This document shows positions 13,358-31,639 of a stretch of 35,914 nt of DNA, piece after piece. Source of the stretch: an uncultured Gammaproteobacteria bacterium (lineage in GTDB: Bacteria > Patescibacteriota > Patescibacteriia > UBA2196 > GWA2-42-15); the NCBI GenBank assembly GCA_964628705.1, contig CAZVLW010000002.1:1-35914 (forward strand), read 5' to 3'. The stretch's first letter is position 1; every line of letters begins with the position of its first letter. The position numbers were made by a program, and so were the translations under genes. The notes under the pieces are model-generated. The model was not told the DNA's origin. It saw nothing but the letters and a program-made list of their open reading frames with translations, and ran no database searches.

Positions 13358-14533
13358 ATGCCAACTCATCAAACCACTAAAAAAATTAAAATTTTATACC
13401 TCATCACGCTTAGCCAATGGGGTGGGGCACAAAAATATGTAACAGATTTGGCAAGCTACTCCAAACGCCAACCCAACTTTGAGGTGAGCGTAGCCTTTGG
13501 TGGCGAACAAAATGGACAGCTTAAAACTACTTTAGAGCAAAATCATATCACCACGCACTACCTTCACCATCTACAACGCCAAGTTAATGTATTAAATGAT
13601 TGGCGTGCTTTTTGGCAGATAGTTAAACTGTATCAAACTCTCAAACCCGATATTGTTCACCTTAATTCATCTAAAGCTGGTGCCCTCGGAGCTATTGCTT
13701 CAATTTGCTGTAGGGTTAAAATTAAAAAAATTATCTACACCGTTCATGGCTTGGTGTTGAATGAACCGCTTAATATATTTAATAAAACCTTCTATTGGCT
13801 GGCTGAATGGCTGAGCGCCAAATTTAAAACCCGCCTGATTGCAGTTTCTGAATACGACAAACAAAAACTATTGCATTACAAAATTTGCCCCGCTCATAAA
13901 ATCACTCTTATCCATAATGGCATACGGCTTAAAAATTTAAAATTTTTACAGCAACACCAAGCTCGCCTTGAATTAAAAAAAATGACCACTACCCCGATTC
14001 ATCATAAAACTATTTGGTTGGGCACTGTGGCCAATTTATATCCAGCCAAAGGATTGCCCTATCTAATCCAAGCTATGCGCTATATTAAATCCCAAGATAA
14101 CCATATTGTATTATTTATTATCGGTTATGGTCCACTTAGAAAAAATCTGACCAATTTAACCCACACTTACCAGCTTGAAGGCGAGGTTGTCTTAGTGGGT
14201 GAAATAAAAAATGCTTACCAATACCTAAAAGCTTTTGATCTATTTATCTTACCATCTGTTAAAGAAGGGCTATCTTACACCCTAATGGAGGCCTTAGCCG
14301 CCCAATTGCCCATTCTTACCACGCAAGTTGGTGGCAATGCTGAAATTGTTGAACATCAAAAAAACGGCTTGCTTGTCCAACCACGCCACACCCAACAACT
14401 TGCCGAACAGACACTCAAACTACTCAACCACCCACCGCTATGTAAAAAATTTGCCAAAAACAACTCAAACAAAGCCAAATATTTTGATATCCAAAATATG
14501 TTTACCCAAACTAAAAAAATTTACTTAAATTAA
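13358..14533 (+). CDS. family 4 (GT-B) glycosyltransferase
   Basis: KILYLITLSQWGGAQKYV N-terminus, HLNSSKAG, and the EX7E motif SVKEGLSYTLMEALAAQLPILTTQVGGNAEIV. It is divergent from the other GT4 gene. Confidence 0.85.
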   Translation: MPTHQTTKKIKILYLITLSQWGGAQKYVTDLASYSKRQPNFEVSVAFGGEQNGQLKTTLEQNHITTHYLHHLQRQVNVLNDWRAFWQIVKLYQTLKPDIVHLNSSKAGALGAIASICCRVKIKKIIYTVHGLVLNEPLNIFNKTFYWLAEWLSAKFKTRLIAVSEYDKQKLLHYKICPAHKITLIHNGIRLKNLKFLQQHQARLELKKMTTTPIHHKTIWLGTVANLYPAKGLPYLIQAMRYIKSQDNHIVLFIIGYGPLRKNLTNLTHTYQLEGEVVLVGEIKNAYQYLKAFDLFILPSVKEGLSYTLMEALAAQLPILTTQVGGNAEIVEHQKNGLLVQPRHTQQLAEQTLKLLNHPPLCKKFAKNNSNKAKYFDIQNMFTQTKKIYLN

Positions 14534-14679
14534 ATCAACTTGCGCCTACTGCAATAAATAACAAATAATATAAATATTACTCAACCAAAACGCACGTCCA
14601 CTTATCACCTATAGCACAAATTCAAACCTCTTTTTTGCTTGATTTAAGACACAACAATCTACCACACACTCACCCTTTT

Positions 14680-14896
14680 AACTACTTATTTACTCACACC
14701 GTGAATATATTTCACTTAATTCGTAACTACTTATTTTATTCACACTGAGAATGTATTTTACTTAATTCGTAACTACTTATTTTATTCACACTGAGAATGT
14801 ATTTTACTCAATTCGTAACTACTTATTTACTCACACTGAGAATGTATTTTACTCAATTCGTAACTACTTATTTTATTCACACCGTGAGTATATTTT
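14680..14896. repeat. tandem direct repeat, 45/46-bp unit, about 4.8 copies
   Basis: Units start at 14680, 14725, 14771, 14817 and 14862 (AACTACTTATTT(T)A(T/C)TCACAC(T/C)G(T)GA(G/A)(A/T)AT(G/A)TATTT(T/C)ACT(T/C)AATTCGT). The whole unit repeats with no unique spacers. The last unit runs straight into the palindrome at 14897. Confidence 0.92.
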
Positions 14897-14938
14897 TTGT
14901 CTTTAATTTTGGTCCGATCGGACCAAAATTAAAGACAA
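14897..14938. repeat. 42-bp perfect palindrome, copy 1
   Basis: TTGTCTTTAATTTTGGTCCGA|TCGGACCAAAATTAAAGACAA, two 21-nt arms with no loop. It lies about 77 bp past the stop of ORF 15016..15567 and has no adjacent T-tract on the correct side for a terminator. Confidence 0.95.
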
Positions 14939-15015
14939 GAGGATACGCCATAAAAAAACACAAAAATATATAATCCACGCTAAAATCTTTAAAATAAATT
15001 TTCAAATCAATCCAT

Positions 15016-15567
15016 TTACTTAATTTTAAATATCTGTATATACTTTTCAAATTTATAATCTTCCACGATTTGTTTAATTAAATCATATGACCCGGCATCA
15101 TTTGAAATGAAACAACTTTTTTGGACCAAATCGTAACCTAAATTATATAAACATCTTCTAAATAAAGTCCTGAAGCGCCTTTCTCTTTCTGGTATATCAA
15201 AAATAACTAAATGTTTCAACAATTTCTTATTTTTAACTTTATTTTTATTTTGCTGGCTATAAACGAGCGTTTGAATAAATAAATTTTTCTTATCACCTTT
15301 AGGGGTTAATTTATAATATTTTTTATTACCCTTTTTAATCTCTTTAATATAATTCTGTTTTTTTAAATAAGCCAAAGAGGAATAATACTCTTTCTGCTGT
15401 TTTCTCTGTTTTTGTCGCTCTTTTTTCCTAATTCTCCTACCTCGCCTCACGCTGGCATAAAAATAACCCTCCAATGAATAACTGTCAGCCATACGATCAA
15501 ATTCATCAATAATATTAATAATAGAATTGGCCACAGATAAACTTGCACCTTTTATATTAATCTTCAT
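15016..15567 (-). CDS. wHTH plus Cas2-like (PaaX-middle-domain-like) protein, stand-alone
   Basis: 183-codon ORF with ATG start. The central segment SLAYLKKQNYIKEIKKGNKKYYKLTPKG looks like a winged-helix wing. The C-terminal segment KHLVIFDIPERERRFRTLFRRCLYNLGYDLVQKSCFISN follows the Cas2 beta1-alpha1-beta2 pattern (hhhh(Y/F)DI..R...h...L...G...hQ.S). Fold assignment is by eye only. Confidence 0.6.
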   Translation of the reverse strand: MKINIKGASLSVANSIINIIDEFDRMADSYSLEGYFYASVRRGRRIRKKERQKQRKQQKEYYSSLAYLKKQNYIKEIKKGNKKYYKLTPKGDKKNLFIQTLVYSQQNKNKVKNKKLLKHLVIFDIPERERRFRTLFRRCLYNLGYDLVQKSCFISNDAGSYDLIKQIVEDYKFEKYIQIFKIK

Positions 15568-15804
15568 ATAATTTATTTGTAATTATTTATAATCAAATTC
15601 ACACTTAAACCAAGCTGACTTTTATTTACTATACTAAATTTACTCAATACTGTTCCATTTAAACATCATCAACATACAAAATGTATAATACTTTCCCTAA
15701 AACTGTTCTTAAACTGACTTTACCTTTAAATTCGCATAAAATCATTCTTTTCTGTTTTTAAATATTTATTTATATTTAAATCCACCAACCAAATTTTATC
15801 TTTA

Positions 15805-15852
15805 AACTTGTCTTTAATTTTGGTCCGATCGGACCAAAATTAAAGACAAGTT
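15805..15852. repeat. 48-bp perfect palindrome, copy 2 (contains the identical 42-bp core)
   Basis: AACTTGTCTTTAATTTTGGTCCGA|TCGGACCAAAATTAAAGACAAGTT, about 237 bp upstream of the ORF 15016..15567 start codon. Confidence 0.95.
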
Positions 15853-15868
15853 CATTATAAAAAATAAA

Positions 15869-15892
15869 CACAATCATAGACACAATCATAGA
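15869..15892. repeat. 12-bp tandem duplication
   Basis: CACAATCATAGA x2, immediately outside palindrome copy 2. Confidence 0.85.
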
Positions 15893-15911
15893 CAAAAGTA
15901 GAAAATAGACA

Positions 15912-16004
15912 AAATAATACACTAAGCAACTAAACAAAAGGAAAAATACACCAAAGCAACAAATAATACACTAAGCAACTAAACAAAAGGAAAAATACAC
16001 CAAA
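15912..16004. repeat. 44-bp direct repeat x2 (period 49)
   Basis: AAATAATACACTAAGCAACTAAACAAAAGGAAAAATACACCAAA at 15912-15955 and 15961-16004, separated by GCAAC. Confidence 0.9.
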
Positions 16005-16207
16005 AAAAGTAAACCATACGCAAAAAAAAGGCCATTCACAAAAAACAATACACGAAAAGAATAATAGCAAAACAAAAATATGAATTTTTAAAAAAGCAAC
16101 GAACTAAACAAATCCAAAAGGAATTTCAAACTACCATAATAAACAAATACCCCATAAATAATAAATTAACCCCCGCCAACCTTAGCTTGGCTCTAAACTA
16201 TTTACAA

Positions 16208-18421
16208 CTACTCTTTTATAAAATCTCCCTGATTAATTTTTTTAATAAAATCTGCTACCTGTGCATCTAAATTTTGGCTCACCCCCTTAAGGCGAGAAAT
16301 TACTTGAATGGCTTTTTGATTCTGTCCTGACTCAGCATAATAAATCGCCAAAGTTGAATAATATTCCAATTTATCTGGCTTGAGCTCAATTAATTTTTCC
16401 ATAGTTTTTTCAAAACGCTCATCATATCCCTTATTTTTATAAACTGAAATAAAACGCACTAAATTTTCTTCTTTTTCAAAATAATTAGCGCTGAGCTTTT
16501 TTATTTTCTCTTCCAGCTTGTCTAACAAGTCCACTTTTCCACCAAACAATGCCGCCACATACACATTAATATGAGTTTCTACTACCTCAGGGTTTAACTC
16601 CACTGCTTTATTAAATTGCTCTATGGCTTTATCATACTCACCTTGGTGCACATACGCTTGGCCTATCTGATAATAGGTATGTGCCCTGGTTGGCGCCAAC
16701 TCTACCAATTTATCCTTTGACTCCAAAACTTTATCCACCCTGTTGGTTTGATAATTATATGACTGCAAGTAAAGCTCATTTAAATTGTATCTATACCGAA
16801 CCTGATGCGGATCCATCTCAATAGTTTTTTGCATTTCAGCAATAGCATCGTCAAAAATAGCCTGCCTTTCATAATCAGGCAAATGCCCAGTTTGCTGTCT
16901 GGTAAAACCGGCAAACTCCAAAGACCCCTCAAAACGGGTAAAACTATTATTTCCATCAAGTAATTTATTATAGGACTGATGTGCGTCTTGGGTATATTTG
17001 GCTTTATTTTGAGCAGCCACCACCTGTGCTTGAAGCAAAGTTTTGTTGTCCCGCATAGCTTGAATATTCCAAAGATAACCTAGATGCAACATAACCGCCA
17101 AAATAACTCCTAAAAATAAGATGGTTTTGGGTTGATATTCTAATGTGTATTGCTTGGAGTCAACATGATAATGCGCCACAAAAGCTAACACCGCGATAAA
17201 TACAATATAGGTGGCCAAAGTGTCAAAGACAAACATATTAGCAACAAAATAAGCCACTATTAAAGAAATTAAAATATTTGCCTCAAGCCTGCTAAATTGA
17301 GTTTTTTTCCATAACACATAAACCAAATAAACCAACAAAGCTACATAAAGCAGTGCCCCCACTGCCCCAGTAGTTACTAAATACTCAAAAAATACGCTGT
17401 GCGCTTTATCAAACCAAATTTTAGAATCACTTGACTCATAAATAGATGGTGGAAAATATTTGCTAAAAGCATAGCTATAATCTTCCACCCCCCACCCAAA
17501 AATAGGTCTATCCTGAAATGCTCTAAAAGCAACTCCCCAAGCAGCCAATCTTGTTTGAGCTGTATGGCTTTCCAATGATATGGAGGCAACTCTATTTACA
17601 ATAGGATTCTGCTTGACTACTGGCTTGTCTTTAAAAATAAAAATAAAACCACCAGCTAAAATTATTAGCGTCAACAAAATAGCGCTGAAACGCTTTATTT
17701 TATATTTTTCACTTGGCAAGCTGACAAGATTTAAGATAGCCAAAAGCATAAAACCCAATGCCAAACCGAGTATAGCACCTCTTGTTTGGGTCAATAATAT
17801 AGCTAATATAAAAACTACTGAAGTAATATAATAAAAGACTTGCCACGCTCGCCTGTCCTCTTTAAAGCTCAAATAGATTGATAAAAACAAACTCATAACC
17901 GCATAATTTGCCAAATAAGCCGGATTGCCCAAAGTCGCTCCAATTCGCGCGCCAGCTGAACTCATTGCTTCAAACAATCCCACATATTGCAATAATCCAT
18001 ACAAACTGGTTAGCAAGGAGGCAAACACCACCGCCCTTAAAAACCACTTCCATTCACGCCAACTGGTTAAAGTCAAGCTAAGTAAAATAAAAAACAGCAA
18101 TAAATGTAGCTGCAAAACTATTCCGTCTGCACGCTCAAAATTGCTCCAAAAACTGCGCATAAAACTCACTCCAAAAATAGACGAAACAAGCATTGCCACA
18201 AATAAAGATAAATATATCCACCAAATATAATTTACTTTAAACTCAATTCTTTTGCGTTGATAAAAATAAATTGCCCATACAATCAAAGCCAATAAAACCA
18301 CTACTCTAAAAAACAATACTTTAGAAGTTACATAAGGGTAATAAAAATTATGTGAAAAAACCAAAGGACTAAAAACCGCCGCTCCGAGCAAAAACTGAAT
18401 TGTGCGTTTAAGTAAAATCAT
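16208..18421 (-). CDS. polytopic Wzy_C (O-antigen ligase / O-oligosaccharyltransferase-like) membrane protein fused to C-terminal TPR repeats
   Basis: About 470 aa with 10 or more hydrophobic helices and a Wzy_C-like loop region (LLTQTRGAILGLALGFMLLA). This is followed by about 250 aa of TPR-like repeats (YYQIGQAYVHQGEYDKAIEQFNKAVELNPE, YYSTLAIYYAESGQNQKAIQV). Confidence 0.78.
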   Translation of the reverse strand: MILLKRTIQFLLGAAVFSPLVFSHNFYYPYVTSKVLFFRVVVLLALIVWAIYFYQRKRIEFKVNYIWWIYLSLFVAMLVSSIFGVSFMRSFWSNFERADGIVLQLHLLLFFILLSLTLTSWREWKWFLRAVVFASLLTSLYGLLQYVGLFEAMSSAGARIGATLGNPAYLANYAVMSLFLSIYLSFKEDRRAWQVFYYITSVVFILAILLTQTRGAILGLALGFMLLAILNLVSLPSEKYKIKRFSAILLTLIILAGGFIFIFKDKPVVKQNPIVNRVASISLESHTAQTRLAAWGVAFRAFQDRPIFGWGVEDYSYAFSKYFPPSIYESSDSKIWFDKAHSVFFEYLVTTGAVGALLYVALLVYLVYVLWKKTQFSRLEANILISLIVAYFVANMFVFDTLATYIVFIAVLAFVAHYHVDSKQYTLEYQPKTILFLGVILAVMLHLGYLWNIQAMRDNKTLLQAQVVAAQNKAKYTQDAHQSYNKLLDGNNSFTRFEGSLEFAGFTRQQTGHLPDYERQAIFDDAIAEMQKTIEMDPHQVRYRYNLNELYLQSYNYQTNRVDKVLESKDKLVELAPTRAHTYYQIGQAYVHQGEYDKAIEQFNKAVELNPEVVETHINVYVAALFGGKVDLLDKLEEKIKKLSANYFEKEENLVRFISVYKNKGYDERFEKTMEKLIELKPDKLEYYSTLAIYYAESGQNQKAIQVISRLKGVSQNLDAQVADFIKKINQGDFIKE

Positions 18422-19744: not shown

Positions 19745-19786
19745 ATCAAACCCGCCCCGGCTAAAAGCCGGGGCGGAGTTTTTTGT
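19745..19786 (-). terminator. intrinsic terminator of the large surface-protein gene
   Basis: GC-rich hairpin CCGCCCCGGC-taaaa-GCCGGGGCGG (19752-19776), with T/A runs on both sides, 20-30 nt past the stop at 19806. Confidence 0.85.
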
Positions 19787-26805: not shown

Positions 26806-26905
26806 TATTTACTACCTTAATTTGTATCCATTATTTTACACCAAATAGTAACAAAAATCCATAAAAAAAATATACTTCAAGTATAATTTTTTTTTCCATT
26901 CATAA

Positions 26906-30874: not shown

Positions 30875-30908
30875 CAATAAAAAATACGCTGTATAAAATA
30901 CAGCGTAT
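30875..30908 (-). terminator. intrinsic terminator after ORF 30916..31392
   Basis: 10-bp perfect stem ATACGCTGTA / TACAGCGTAT (30884-30893 and 30899-30908) with a 5-nt loop. It is followed on the minus strand by TTTTTATT. Confidence 0.82.
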
Positions 30909-30915
30909 ATGAAAA

Positions 30916-31479: not shown

Positions 31480-31639
31480 CAAGGACAGTTCTTTAAATTT
31501 TATATTTAAAGGACTGTTCTTGAGCAAAGCACAAAGGATTTAACATCCAAGAACAGTCCTGCTAACGCAGAACTGTCCTTGTGGAGATTGACTAATATTC
31601 TGGTTCAATTCTCCAGAATTGAACCATTAAGATAATTTA
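31480..31639 (-). repeat. dispersed hairpin repeat, longest copy (minus orientation) with nested hairpins
   Basis: CAAGGACAGTTCT (31480-92) and AGGACTGTTCTTG (31510-22), plus their complements CAAGAACAGTCCT (31548-60) and AGAACTGTCCTTG (31569-81). A 12-bp-arm palindrome TGGTTCAATTCT-cc-AGAATTGAACCA lies at 31601-31626. The reverse complement of 31530-31639 aligns with 35818-35890. Confidence 0.85.

What the first reader, a model, noticed from the sequence alone, without database searches (positions are those of the whole stretch)
14534..16207. Stand-alone wHTH-Cas2-like gene boxed in by twin perfect palindromes with outward tandem-repeat arrays
A 1.7-kb gene-poor island lies between two convergent envelope genes (GT4 ending at 14533, Wzy_C-TPR ending at 16208) in an otherwise tightly packed genome. 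It holds one 183-codon ORF. The C-terminal half (KHLVIFDIPERERRFRTLFRRCLYNLGYDLVQKSCFISN) follows the Cas2 / PaaX-middle-domain ferredoxin-fold signature. It is preceded by a very basic linker and a winged-helix-like segment. The window has no cas1, no other cas gene and no spacer-bearing array. The ORF is bracketed by the same perfect palindrome, TTGTCTTTAATTTTGGTCCGA|TCGGACCAAAATTAAAGACAA. One copy lies about 77 bp past the stop (14897-14938). The other lies about 237 bp ahead of the start (15805-15852, extended there to 48 bp). Direct-repeat arrays sit immediately outside each palindrome: 45/46-mer x4.8 on the left, 12-mer x2 and 44-mer x2 on the right. The palindromes lack the T-tract of intrinsic terminators. 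This symmetric repeat-palindrome-gene-palindrome-repeat layout suggests several readings: a self-contained cassette with hairpin or cruciform recombination sites, an autoregulated module whose wHTH protein binds the palindromes or iteron-like repeats, or a relic of a small replicon or mobile element. I know of no described system with this layout.
Basis: partly seen in the sequence, partly recalled or inferred. Interest (0 to 1): 0.72.

Follow-up and report, generated by a model that had tools for sequence, protein, structure and literature searches.

The report
Cas2-like regulator bracketed by palindromes
A small DNA-binding protein that databases usually label as the CRISPR protein Cas2 sits between two copies of its own roughly 40-bp palindromic site, an arrangement conserved across hundreds of Patescibacteria (CPR) genomes, and it most likely works as a self-regulating repressor, not as part of CRISPR or a mobile element.

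Summary
A 183-aa ORF (15016-15567, minus strand) lies between two identical 43-bp perfect palindromes, with tandem repeats outside them. The protein is a MarR/PadR-like winged helix fused to a Cas2/PaaX-middle-type ferredoxin domain.

The layout is not a local oddity. The family has at least 405 clusters (50% identity) at E<=1e-30. In 81 loci from Patescibacteria, 66 have a site on both sides of the gene and 75 have at least one.

Each site has three parts:
- a family-wide core, ACGR|YCGT;
- a loose linker at positions 5-11;
- a locus-specific box at positions 12-17, which is the same in all four half-sites of a locus but differs between loci and paralogues.

At upstream sites a -10-like hexamer sits at +17/18 on the gene side, so the site overlaps the promoter. 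A few orphan sites with the same box and core lie in other intergenic regions. Two abundant members keep one genomic context in every place examined, and IMG/VR viral contigs hold none.

Best reading: a cognate dimeric repressor with twin operators around its own gene and a small regulon. The window's tandem repeats are not conserved in the family. A nuclease or recombination role at the core is not excluded.

The parts
15016..15567 (-). 183-aa wHTH + Cas2/PaaX_M-like protein, a divergent member (about 25-34% identity to relatives) of a large Patescibacteria family
   Evidence: ORF list. Pfam PaaX_M E=8.7e-12. cas2 TIGR01573 25.6 bits. Profile search found 4322 relatives, 405 at E<=1e-30. Invariant D124, E127, S151, G159.
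15250..15546 (-). N-terminal winged-helix region (aa 8-106): helix 8-26, long basic helix 33-70 ending in the recognition helix (…YYSSLAYLKKQNYI), beta-hairpin wing 74-87, helix 89-106
   Evidence: AlphaFold model. A family profile matches the MarR-type regulator YetL 7wze and the wHTH of 3cta. Weak PadR and PaaX N-terminal hits.
15022..15216 (-). C-terminal Cas2-like ferredoxin domain (aa 118-182), with the FDIPE motif (D124, E127) and a basic helix ERRFRTLFRR
   Evidence: Beta-alpha-beta-beta-alpha-beta topology. Foldseek top hits are Cas2 6jhz, 2ivy, 3exc, 5zyf (prob 0.97-1.0); E. coli PaaX 8a39 aligns over 125 columns.
15805..15852 (.). Upstream site: perfect 24+24 palindrome, dyad centre 15828|15829, core CCGA|TCGG, box CTTTAA at positions 12-17. 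The centre is 261 nt from the ATG, the longest distance of 69 loci.
14895..14940 (.). Downstream site: perfect 21+21 palindrome (14897-14938; 23+23 with one mismatch), dyad centre 14917|14918, 98 nt past the stop. It lies between two convergent genes, so there is no promoter for it to control.
14679..14896 (.). 46-bp tandem repeat x4.8 abutting the downstream site. It is specific to this locus, lacks the box and core, and is not a conserved part of the system.
   Evidence: TRF. No comparable arrays at 80 other loci.
15864..16004 (.). A-rich repeats outside the upstream site: 12-mer x2.6 (15864-15894) and exact 44-mer x2 (15912-15955, 15961-16004). Specific to this locus.

Best explanation
The ORF encodes a 'mini-PaaX': a MarR/PadR-like winged helix fused to a Cas2-like domain, without PaaX's C-terminal domain.

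Proposed mechanism (inferred):
- The protein acts as a dimer, held together by the Cas2-like domain, on a bipartite palindromic site of about 34-42 bp.
- The conserved core ACGR|YCGT at the dyad is read by conserved parts of the protein.
- The locus-specific 6-bp box 12-17 bp out on each arm is read by the variable recognition helix.

Shown from sequence:
- Two copies of the cognate site bracket the gene.
- In most family members the upstream copy covers the -35/spacer region of the gene's own promoter, with the -10 starting at +17/18 from the dyad. Binding there would shut off the gene's own transcription (negative autoregulation).
- The downstream copy has no promoter signature.

Further inference:
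- The downstream copy is most likely a second operator that cooperates with the first, by looping about 690 bp of DNA or as a roadblock.
- A few further copies in front of neighbouring or distant genes form a small regulon.
- Paralogues in one genome carry different boxes, which keeps them orthogonal.

The window's copy is an atypical, divergent member. It has perfect twin sites, but the upstream one lies 261 nt from the ATG and unrelated tandem repeats lie outside both sites.

Not shown: binding itself, the oligomeric state, looping and repression are all inferred.
For: **Fold.** PaaX_M E=8.7e-12. Typical members also pass Pfam's Cas2 cut-off. The AlphaFold and Foldseek results match Cas2 and the first two domains of E. 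coli PaaX. The N-terminus matches a MarR-type regulator.

**Conserved layout.**
- A 34%-identical homologue, P0002, has its own twin CGATCG-centred palindromes.
- 66 of 81 loci have sites on both sides and 75 of 81 have at least one.
- Long palindromes are 22 times denser within 300 bp of the gene than in the flanks.
- The dyad score at CGRYCG cores is bimodal: chance cores score <=13 and real sites >=16.

**Recognition-type anatomy.**
- The core is invariant across the family.
- The box at positions 12-17 is identical in all four half-sites in about 60 of 65 loci, yet has low information content across loci.
- The linker at positions 5-11 is loose.
- Orphan sites keep box and core while the linker varies freely.
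- Arm identity is 0.81 within a locus against 0.34 between loci.
- Paralogues in one genome have different boxes.
- Box distance correlates with recognition-helix distance given the Cas2 domain (r=0.21, 0 of 2000 permutations reached it), and the converse does not hold.

**Promoter overlap.** A hexamer matching TATAAT at >=5 of 6 positions starts at +17/18 on the gene side of the upstream site in 17 of 69 loci, against 2-3 in each of three control orientations.

**Extra sites.** They lie on the promoter side of adjacent genes in L018, L011, L058, L085, L099 and L108.

**Stability.**
- Context and orientation are fixed in 8+10+10 places.
- Neighbours are housekeeping genes.
- Viral contigs hold no relatives.
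Against: - A repressor does not need an operator past its own stop codon. The downstream neighbour is co-directional in 37 loci and convergent in 37, so the downstream site does not serve a neighbour's promoter. Looping or a roadblock is conjecture.
- Many sites are perfect palindromes, and 67 differences between the two copies of a locus are mirrored on both arms (about 1-2 expected by my rough estimate from the counts). A protein dimer alone does not require this. It points to hairpin or cruciform selection, or to template-switch homogenisation.
- The catalytic-position Asp and a Glu (FDIPE) are invariant, which hints at retained metal binding or nuclease activity.
- The gene's GC is below the flanks in 74 of 80 loci.
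- Extra cassettes are bounded by a third site, and one module is inverted between conserved neighbours.
- Some orphan sites seem to lie between convergent genes (L103, L100).
- In the window itself the upstream site is 261 nt from the ATG, with no clear promoter next to it.
- The Mantel test is confounded by phylogeny.
Confidence: 0.6

Rival explanations
1. Cassette recombination system. The palindromes are site-specific recombination sites with a 6-bp symmetric overlap (CGATCG), as in dif modules or integron attC. Strand exchange would be done by a Xer-type tyrosine recombinase, or by the Cas2-like protein itself, with the wHTH protein giving site specificity. Genes between sites would be excisable or invertible cassettes, and orphan sites would be empty or solo sites.
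For: - Extra genes are bounded by a third copy of the same site: a RelE/ParE-like pair in L085, a DUF4258-like toxin in L058, and LexA-type wHTH ORFs in L011 and L018.
- L085 has three tandem sites.
- Solo sites lie in short intergenic gaps.
- The module is inverted between conserved Xer and Band_7 neighbours in L056 compared with L025, L029 and L117.
- A Xer-type recombinase is the commonest neighbour, in 12 of 80 loci.
- The island is absent at the GT4 junction of the nearest relatives.
- The gene's GC is low.
- Palindrome symmetry is maintained.
Against: - There is no presence/absence, context or orientation polymorphism in 28 places of three abundant members.
- Orthologous modules stay next to gyrB or xer across species.
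- One host Xer could not read the different arms of paralogous sites in a genome.
- The conserved parts (8-bp core plus box at 12-17) do not fit an 11-6-11 Xer site.
- Cas2 folds have no known strand-transfer chemistry.
- The GT4 relatives are only 56% identical and have a different downstream gene, so the 'empty site' is not clean.
Confidence: 0.15
2. REP/RAYT-like arrangement. The protein is a domesticated site-specific nuclease that cuts or nicks at the conserved core. It maintains or disperses a low-copy family of palindromic elements, and its gene is flanked by two of them as a remnant of the ancestral mobile unit.
For: - The gene is flanked by cognate palindromes, each paralogue has its own repeat variant, and there are dispersed orphans.
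- The Cas2 catalytic-position Asp plus a Glu and a Ser are invariant.
- Some Cas2 proteins are metal-dependent nucleases (PDB 4es1-4es3 appear among the structural matches).
- Palindrome perfection is maintained.
Against: - Copy number is low: 9 extra sites in 382 kb of flanks, 6 of them local, and only 2 in the 36-kb window.
- In orphan sites the linker is free, so the hairpin is not conserved while box and core are. That pattern favours duplex recognition.
- There is no HUH/Y1 or other transposase chemistry.
- The upstream site is positioned on the promoter.
Confidence: 0.1
3. RNA-level element. The palindromes are transcribed as 5' and 3' hairpins that stabilise, terminate or process the mRNA, possibly cut or bound by the Cas2/VapD-like domain acting as an RNase.
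For: - Long stems flank the coding region, and the terminator scan flags 15807-15850.
- Cas2, VapD and GhoS folds include RNases.
Against: - G-T and A-C mismatches are balanced on the sense strand (39 vs 55 upstream; 53 vs 51 downstream), so there is no wobble signature.
- Symmetry is strictest in a 6-bp box and relaxed in the stem middle.
- Orphan sites have asymmetric linkers.
- The -10 lies at the outer edge of the upstream site, so much of that site is not transcribed.
- There is no family-wide T-tract.
- No Rfam family matches.
Confidence: 0.05

Closest known systems
PaaX (phenylacetate catabolon repressor; Pfam PF07848 + PF20803 + PaaX_C; PDB 8a39)
   Same: It has the same first two domains in the same order: an N-terminal winged helix, then the Cas2-like middle domain (PF20803 E=8.7e-12; Foldseek aligns 125 columns to 8a39). 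From my own knowledge, PaaX is a repressor that binds palindromic operators at its target promoters.
   Different: - It has no PaaX C-terminal domain: 183-200 aa against about 305-316.
- TIGR02277 scores 26 bits against a cut-off of 264.
- No paa genes are nearby.
- The operator is a 34-42-bp bipartite palindrome with a CGATCG core.
- Twin copies bracket the regulator's own gene.
- It is restricted to Patescibacteria.
Cas2 (CRISPR adaptation; PF09827 / TIGR01573)
   Same: It has the ferredoxin-like beta-alpha-beta-beta-alpha-beta fold, with Cas2 structures as top Foldseek hits. The Asp at the end of beta1 is conserved (FDIPE). Typical members pass Pfam's Cas2 cut-off. Pipelines name many of them 'CRISPR-associated endonuclease Cas2'.
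   Different: - It is fused to a winged helix.
- There is no cas1, no other cas gene and no CRISPR array in the window.
- No Cas family appeared among the 25 families most often matched by 150 neighbour proteins.
- The flanking 'repeats' are two operator-like palindromes about 690 bp apart, not a repeat-spacer array.
MarR/PadR-type autoregulated winged-helix repressors
   Same: A wHTH dimer acts on a dyad-symmetric operator that overlaps its own promoter.
   Different: - Dimerisation is presumably through a Cas2-like domain.
- The operator is about twice as long, with half-site boxes about 29 bp apart plus a conserved central core.
- A second operator lies beyond the stop codon.
REP elements with their RAYT genes
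   Same: The gene is flanked by its own palindromic repeats, each paralogue has its own repeat variant, and there are dispersed intergenic copies.
   Different: - There is no HUH/Y1 domain.
- Copy number is very low.
- Orphan sites conserve box and core, not the hairpin.
Acinetobacter dif modules (pdif/XerCD) and integron cassettes
   Same: Small genes, including toxin-antitoxin pairs, are bounded by repeated palindromic sites and sometimes occur in series. A Xer-type recombinase is often next door.
   Different: - No mobility is seen in populations.
- Site anatomy does not fit 11-6-11.
- Arms differ between paralogous modules of one genome.
- The modules are chromosomal and sit among housekeeping genes.

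Membership tests
Cas2 (CRISPR-Cas adaptation protein) | Cas2 ferredoxin-like fold and a profile match above the curated cut-off | tested here: met
   TIGR01573 25.6 bits against 24.5 for the window protein. PF09827 30.0 and 24.2 bits against 23.8 for P0066 and P0003. Foldseek top hits are Cas2.
Cas2 (CRISPR-Cas adaptation protein) | Conserved metal-binding Asp at the end of strand beta1 | tested here: met
   D124 in FDIPE is invariant in 88 sequences. It aligns to position 8 of the cas2 model. Equivalence to the catalytic Asp is inferred from the alignment register.
Cas2 (CRISPR-Cas adaptation protein) | Encoded with cas1 next to a CRISPR repeat-spacer array | tested here: not met
   No cas gene other than the ORF's own hit among 30 window proteins. 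No spacer array. No Cas family in the top families of 150 neighbours.
Cas2 (CRISPR-Cas adaptation protein) | Small single-domain protein (about 80-120 aa) | tested here: not met
   183-210 aa with an N-terminal winged-helix region.
PaaX family repressor | Central Cas2-like domain PF20803 | tested here: met
   E=8.7e-12, 45.4 bits against a cut-off of 24.
PaaX family repressor | N-terminal PaaX winged helix (PF07848) | tested here: inconclusive
   PF07848 E=0.21, below the cut-off. The structural alignment to 8a39 spans the wHTH plus the middle domain.
PaaX family repressor | C-terminal PaaX_C domain and a full-length equivalog score | tested here: not met
   The protein ends with the Cas2-like domain. 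TIGR02277 scores 26.4 bits against a cut-off of 264.55.
PaaX family repressor | Controls paa (phenylacetate) genes and responds to phenylacetyl-CoA | tested here: not met
   No paa genes in the window or among the neighbours. Effector binding is not testable with these tools.
Autoregulated wHTH repressor (MarR/PadR type) | Dyad-symmetric operator overlapping its own promoter | tested here: met
   At family level, a -10-like hexamer starts at +17/18 of the upstream site in 17 of 69 loci against 2-3 in each control orientation. This is not evident in the window's own copy.
Autoregulated wHTH repressor (MarR/PadR type) | The protein binds that operator and represses transcription | not testable with these tools
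   Needs EMSA or footprinting and reporter assays. Indirect support comes from box/recognition-helix covariation.
REP/RAYT | HUH-Y1 (IS200/IS605-like) nuclease domain | tested here: not met
   No such Pfam hit.
REP/RAYT | Tens to hundreds of dispersed cognate palindromes per genome | tested here: inconclusive
   9 extra sites in 382 kb of flanks. Orphans were seen in 20 of 25 metagenome contigs chosen by one site pattern. No complete genome could be scanned.
Xer/dif modules or integron cassettes | Cassettes found in different contexts or orders (mobility) | tested here: not met
   Context and orientation are constant in 8+10+10 places. There is one evolutionary inversion, in L056.
Xer/dif modules or integron cassettes | Site made of two recombinase-binding arms around a 6-8-bp overlap, read by one recombinase | tested here: inconclusive
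   A 6-bp symmetric centre exists. However, the arms differ between paralogous modules in one genome and symmetry peaks at positions 12-17.
Intrinsic terminator | GC-rich hairpin followed by a T-tract, acting in RNA | tested here: not met
   No wobble-strand bias. The upstream copies are on the promoter side. There is no family-wide T-tract.

The most novel reading that the evidence does not exclude
The protein is not only a repressor but an active, sequence-directed enzyme. The two winged helices clamp the locus-specific boxes and the Cas2-like dimer, with its invariant Asp and Glu, nicks or cuts the conserved CGATCG core. That would make 'site-gene-site' a self-bracketed, domesticated DNA element. 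It would be a Cas2-fold counterpart of RAYT/REP, or the specificity subunit of a Xer-driven cassette system. It would also be a living example of a Cas2-like protein paired with its own palindromic repeats outside CRISPR, which bears on how Cas2 and palindromic repeats first became associated.
Probability: 0.12. Interest if true: 0.9.

Novelty: new variant of a known kind. Interest (0 to 1): 0.62.

Why it matters
- **Misannotation.** Thousands of small Patescibacteria (CPR) proteins are auto-annotated as 'CRISPR-associated endonuclease Cas2', PaaX, PadR or hypothetical. This analysis shows they form one family with a recognisable cognate DNA site. That corrects a systematic misannotation in genomes that mostly lack CRISPR.
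- **A testable regulator-operator pair.** CPR bacteria have few known regulators and almost no genetics. Each paralogue comes with its own readable 6-bp box, which gives a natural specificity code that can be tested in vitro or in E. coli.
- **Use of the Cas2 fold.** The family documents the Cas2 fold as the dimerising or core-reading module of a DNA-binding protein, linking PaaX and Cas2.
- **Open design question.** The near-universal second site beyond the stop codon, the self-perfecting palindromes and the invariant acidic residues are not explained by standard repressor logic. If the protein turns out to cut or recombine DNA, the system would be a new kind of element.

Tried and rejected
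- **Word-index protein search** with the window protein found only 3 proteins. The exhaustive profile search was needed.
It was redone with 13.
- **phmmer of the window protein against PDB** gave only chance hits. The family profile against PDB found MarR-type wHTH proteins but not Cas2 by sequence.
- **Rfam**, at gathering and E-value thresholds, gave nothing but chance hairpin matches to miRNA models.
- **The promoter scan of the island** was at shuffle level.
- **PHROGs** gave no match, and **IMG/VR** held no relatives.
- **Literature searches** on PaaX + Cas2-like, on Cas2 + winged helix + Patescibacteria, and on PaaX + CPR found no paper.
- **The one metagenome scan was mis-specified.** It was meant to census the P0002 site, but I wrote a 7-nt linker where that site has 6. 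It therefore sampled a different box class (ATTACA). It was still informative, because it revealed the orphan sites.
- **Empty-site test at the GT4 / Wzy_C junction.** The nearest relatives are only 56% identical and have a PMT_2 gene there. The island is absent, but the comparison is not clean.

Rejected readings:
- **Generic high-copy REP:** only 2 sites in the window, and 9 extra in 382 kb of flanks.
- **CRISPR-like array:** no spacers and no cas1.
- **Centromere or iteron role for the tandem repeats:** not conserved, no box, no partition ATPase.
- **RNA hairpin:** no wobble bias.
Full report
**1. What is in the window**

The finding is accurate. A 183-codon ORF (15016-15567, minus strand) is the only sizeable ORF in a 1.67-kb gap. 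The gap lies between a GT4 glycosyltransferase ending at 14533 and a Wzy_C-TPR gene ending at 16208.

The sequence TTGTCTTTAATTTTGGTCCGA|TCGGACCAAAATTAAAGACAA occurs at 14897-14938 and 15808-15849.
- The shared stretch is 43 nt at 100% identity.
- The upstream copy is a perfect 24+24 palindrome at 15805-15852.
- There are no other copies in the window with up to 3 mismatches, and none in 100 shuffles.

Outside the palindromes lie tandem repeats:
- a 46-bp repeat x4.8 at 14679-14896;
- a 12-mer x2.6 at 15864-15894;
- an exact 44-mer x2 at 15912-16004.

The island has 22-30% GC against 36-43% around it. The rest of the window is core chromosome: SecDF, ribosomal proteins L1 and L11, NusG, MraZ/MraW, a penicillin-binding protein and type IV pilus genes. 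It has no cas gene and no spacer array. The closest GT4 homologues (56% identity) are from Candidatus Kuenenbacteria.

**2. The protein**

- Pfam gives PaaX_M ('PaaX central Cas2-like domain') at E=8.7e-12 over aa 119-181.
- NCBIfam cas2 TIGR01573 just passes its cut-off, at 25.6 against 24.5 bits. The full-length PaaX model is far below its cut-off.
- An AlphaFold2 model built on 88 relatives (pLDDT 82) shows two helices, a beta-hairpin wing and a further helix, followed by a beta-alpha-beta-beta-alpha-beta domain.
- Foldseek's best PDB matches to the C-terminal domain are Cas2 structures: 6jhz, 2ivy, 3exc and 5zyf. E. coli PaaX (8a39) aligns over 125 columns covering both domains.
- A family profile matches the MarR-type regulator YetL over the N-terminal region.

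So the architecture is a MarR/PadR-like winged helix plus a Cas2-like domain. This equals PaaX without its C-terminal domain.

Across 88 relatives D124, E127 (motif FD[IV]PE), S151 and G159 are invariant. The basic helix (R)KRxWLR is nearly so. The window protein is a divergent member with about 25-34% identity to the others. It lacks the usual C-terminal TKxGSL tail and has F in place of the near-invariant W.

**3. The family**

An exhaustive profile search of 1.84 billion representatives returned 4322 proteins at E<=1e-3 and 405 at E<=1e-30. Nearly all are 185-210 aa and match end to end.

A scan of one genome per species found 174 relatives through two peptide patterns. The 80 loci kept are nearly all labelled as Patescibacteria-type MAGs (Wolfe-, Lipton-, Nomura-, Jorgensen-, Colwell-, Portnoybacteria, Paceibacterota, and MAGs labelled Saccharibacteria). 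Several genomes carry two or three paralogues.

Pipelines name these proteins 'CRISPR-associated endonuclease Cas2', 'PaaX', 'PadR' or hypothetical. None occurs in IMG/VR viral contigs, and PHROGs has no match.

**4. The key result: the bracket of palindromes is a family trait**

The first homologue examined was P0002, at 34% identity. It has its own twin palindromes, TCAATTACATATCTCACGA|TCGTGAAATATGTAATTGA upstream and a near-copy downstream.

Across 81 loci I scored dyad symmetry over 24+24 nt around CG[AG][TC]CG cores. In the flanks more than 350 bp from the gene the scores are bimodal: chance cores score <=13 and real sites >=16.
- 69 loci have a site scoring >=14 upstream.
- 72 loci have one downstream.
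- 66 have both and 75 have at least one.
- Most of the remainder have weaker twins or a different centre, for example CATATG in L071.
- Long palindromes are 22 times denser within 300 bp of the gene than elsewhere (1.85 against 0.084 per kb).

Dyad centres lie 24-119 nt before the ATG in most loci, and a median of 47 nt past the stop. Centre-to-centre spacing has a median of 688 bp and a range of 599-911 bp. The window is the extreme on both upstream distance (261 nt) and spacing (911 bp).

**5. Anatomy of the site**

- **Positions 1-4** from the dyad are A-C-G-R | Y-C-G-T in essentially all sites. CGATCG is commonest, followed by CGGCCG, CGGTCG and CGACCG. The window has the rarer C at position 4.
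- **Positions 5-11** vary and often break symmetry.
- **Positions 12-17** are almost never asymmetric. They are identical in all four half-sites of a locus in about 60 of 65 loci. Across loci, and between paralogues of one genome, they differ, with information content of 0.02-0.6 bit.
- **Beyond position 18** symmetry decays.

Arm identity is 0.81 within a locus against 0.34 between loci.

Groups of loci that share a box share a recognition-helix motif:
- ACTATCC goes with KQ[KR]YYNL[IL]YKLK;
- GTTTACTA goes with RKKRLxxFISKMKHDGLI;
- TGTCAAG goes with RRFYAMVRYLEQDG.

A partial Mantel test links box distance to recognition-helix distance given the Cas2 domain (r=0.21; 0 of 2000 permutations reached it). 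The converse is not significant (r=0.04). The linker tracks the Cas2 domain instead (r=0.16). I treat this as weak support, because phylogeny inflates such tests.

This pattern of conserved core, free spacer and strict variable box is what bipartite recognition of duplex DNA by a symmetric dimer looks like.

**6. Promoter overlap**

I looked for hexamers matching TATAAT at >=5 of 6 positions. On the gene-proximal side of upstream sites they start at +17 or +18 from the dyad in 17 of 69 loci. In the three control orientations the counts are 2, 3 and 3.

That places the dyad near -28.5 of the promoter, so the site covers the -35 and spacer region. In the gyrB-adjacent clade the arm runs up to the ATG, and TGgTAAACT lies at -15 to -7 from the start codon. 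That is the geometry of a leaderless mRNA.

Downstream sites have no such signal. The downstream neighbour is co-directional in 37 loci and convergent in 37. The second site therefore serves the bracketed gene, not a neighbour's promoter.

**7. Sites elsewhere**

In 382 kb of flanks more than 350 bp from the gene there are only 9 real sites. Six are extra copies of the local site, and each lies on the promoter side of an adjacent small gene:
- a LexA-type wHTH ORF in L011 and L018;
- a DUF4258-like toxin in L058;
- a RelE/ParE-like pair in L085, which is preceded by three sites 89 and 98 bp apart.

A metagenome scan with ATTACA-N7-ACGATCGT-N7-TGTAAT returned 25 contigs (my linker length missed the intended P0002 site).
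- Five contigs have the site next to a family gene.
- About 20 carry single orphan sites in short intergenic gaps between housekeeping genes.
- Most of those gaps are tandem or divergent, and two are apparently convergent.
- In the orphans box and core are kept and the linker is free.
- On L108 an orphan with the same box lies 3.2 kb from a bracketed family gene and 40 nt before a gene start.

So the sites are not a high-copy REP and not exclusive to the gene. They look like a small regulon.

**8. Tests of the other readings**

*RNA hairpin.* G-T and A-C mismatches are balanced on the sense strand, and Rfam finds nothing.

*Mobility.* P0002, P0282 and P0307 are each seen in dozens of assemblies. 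Each keeps one context and one orientation in 8, 10 and 10 places, with twin sites throughout. Orthologous modules stay next to gyrB in one clade and next to a Xer-type recombinase in another.

Some signals still point to a recombination history:
- The module is inverted between conserved Xer and Band_7 neighbours in L056, compared with L025, L029 and L117.
- The gene's GC is below its flanks in 74 of 80 loci, with a median difference of -7.9 points.
- The island is absent at the GT4 junction of the nearest, though distant, relatives.
- 67 differences between the two copies of a locus are mirrored on both arms, against about 1-2 expected by my rough estimate from the counts.

That last point shows that palindromic symmetry is actively maintained. 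The cause could be hairpin or cruciform selection, or template-switch homogenisation of quasi-palindromes (a mechanism I cite from my own knowledge).

*Tandem repeats.* Nothing comparable flanks the sites at the other 80 loci. The window's repeats contain neither box nor core, so they are a local feature.

**9. Interpretation**

The best-supported account is a cognate DNA-binding autoregulator.
- A dimer reads the core and the two boxes.
- The upstream site occludes the gene's own promoter.
- The downstream site acts as an auxiliary operator, through a loop or a roadblock.
- A few further operators lie elsewhere.
- Paralogues are kept orthogonal by box divergence.

Binding, oligomeric state, looping and repression are inferred, not shown. 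I give this 0.6.

The features it does not explain are the universal downstream site, the perfected palindromes, the invariant Asp and Glu, the site-bounded neighbour genes and the low GC. These leave about 0.25-0.3 for recombination-site or nuclease readings. The most novel version of those would make this a Cas2-fold analogue of RAYT/REP, or a specificity factor for Xer.

The window's own copy is an outlier. It is a divergent protein with perfect and identical twin sites, but the upstream site lies far from the ATG with no clear adjacent promoter.

**10. Comparison and novelty**

- It is not a CRISPR Cas2: the fold and the Asp are met, but context and size are not.
- It is not a true PaaX: the middle domain is met, but the C-terminal domain, the full-length score and the paa context are not.
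- It works most like a MarR/PadR-type autorepressor, with an unusual domain, an unusually long bipartite operator and a second operator past the stop codon.

I found no paper describing it. I rate it a new variant of a known kind, with interest 0.62.

Noticed in passing
L010, L015, L016, L025-L027, L029, L031, L034, L060 (upstream); L013, L056 (downstream); L117-L126: A Xer-type tyrosine recombinase is the commonest direct neighbour of the module, in 12 of 80 loci. It scores 231 bits on the archaeal XerA model against a cut-off of 220, and it also flanks the abundant member P0282. Single-recombinase Xer systems often sit next to their near-palindromic dif site, so the relation of these sites to dif is worth checking.
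   Followed up: partly
L056 1431-4581 compared with L025, L029, L117: The module is inverted relative to both conserved neighbours. L056 has Band_7(-), module(+), Xer(-), where the others have Xer(+), module(+), Band_7(+). This is the outcome expected from recombination between the two palindromic sites.
   Followed up: partly
L085 1860-2090 and 2338-2804: Three copies of the local site lie in tandem, 89 and 98 bp apart. They are followed by a two-gene RelE/ParE-like pair (assignment by eye; no Pfam hit), then the usual site-gene-site module.
   Followed up: partly
L011 3799-4251 (-) and L018 3712-4215 (-): Homologous 150-167-aa ORFs lie between the module's downstream site and a third copy of the site. 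They have a LexA-type wHTH and an uncharacterised C-terminal half that looks GIY-YIG-like by eye.
   Followed up: partly
L096, L098-L107, L109-L116 (metagenome contigs): Single orphan sites (TATTACAC…ACGATCGT…GTGTAATA) lie in short intergenic gaps between housekeeping genes. Five come from one assembly (FWPV01). One (L110, centre 1108) appears to lie inside a long aminoacyl-tRNA-synthetase-like ORF.
   Followed up: partly
80 family loci (L009-L088): The family gene has lower GC than its flanks in 74 of 80 loci, with a median difference of -7.9 points and a maximum of -15. It is unclear whether this reflects the Lys-rich protein or a foreign origin.
   Followed up: no
window 14679-14896 and 15864-16004: A 46-bp repeat x4.8 and A-rich 12-mer and 44-mer repeats abut the two sites. 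They are unrelated in sequence to the sites and are not seen at other loci. Their origin and function are unknown.
   Followed up: partly
public annotations (P0282, P0308, P0317, P0345, P0372 and others): NCBI and JGI pipelines name many members 'CRISPR-associated endonuclease/endoribonuclease Cas2'. One is assigned to a 'Lokiarchaeia' MAG and one to a 'Deltaproteobacteria' MAG. These are likely binning or annotation artefacts.
   Followed up: no
window 31601-31626, 31485-31517, 30882-30910, 26863-26893, 19752-19776: Other short palindromes are present in the window, for example TGGTTCAATTCTC|CAGAATTGAACCA and a GC-rich hairpin at 19752-19776. None has the CGRYCG core, and they are probably terminators or unrelated operators.
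   Followed up: no
L117 3600-4140 (P0282 locus): A 540-bp gap with no called gene follows the module, beyond its downstream site, in all ten population variants.
   Followed up: no
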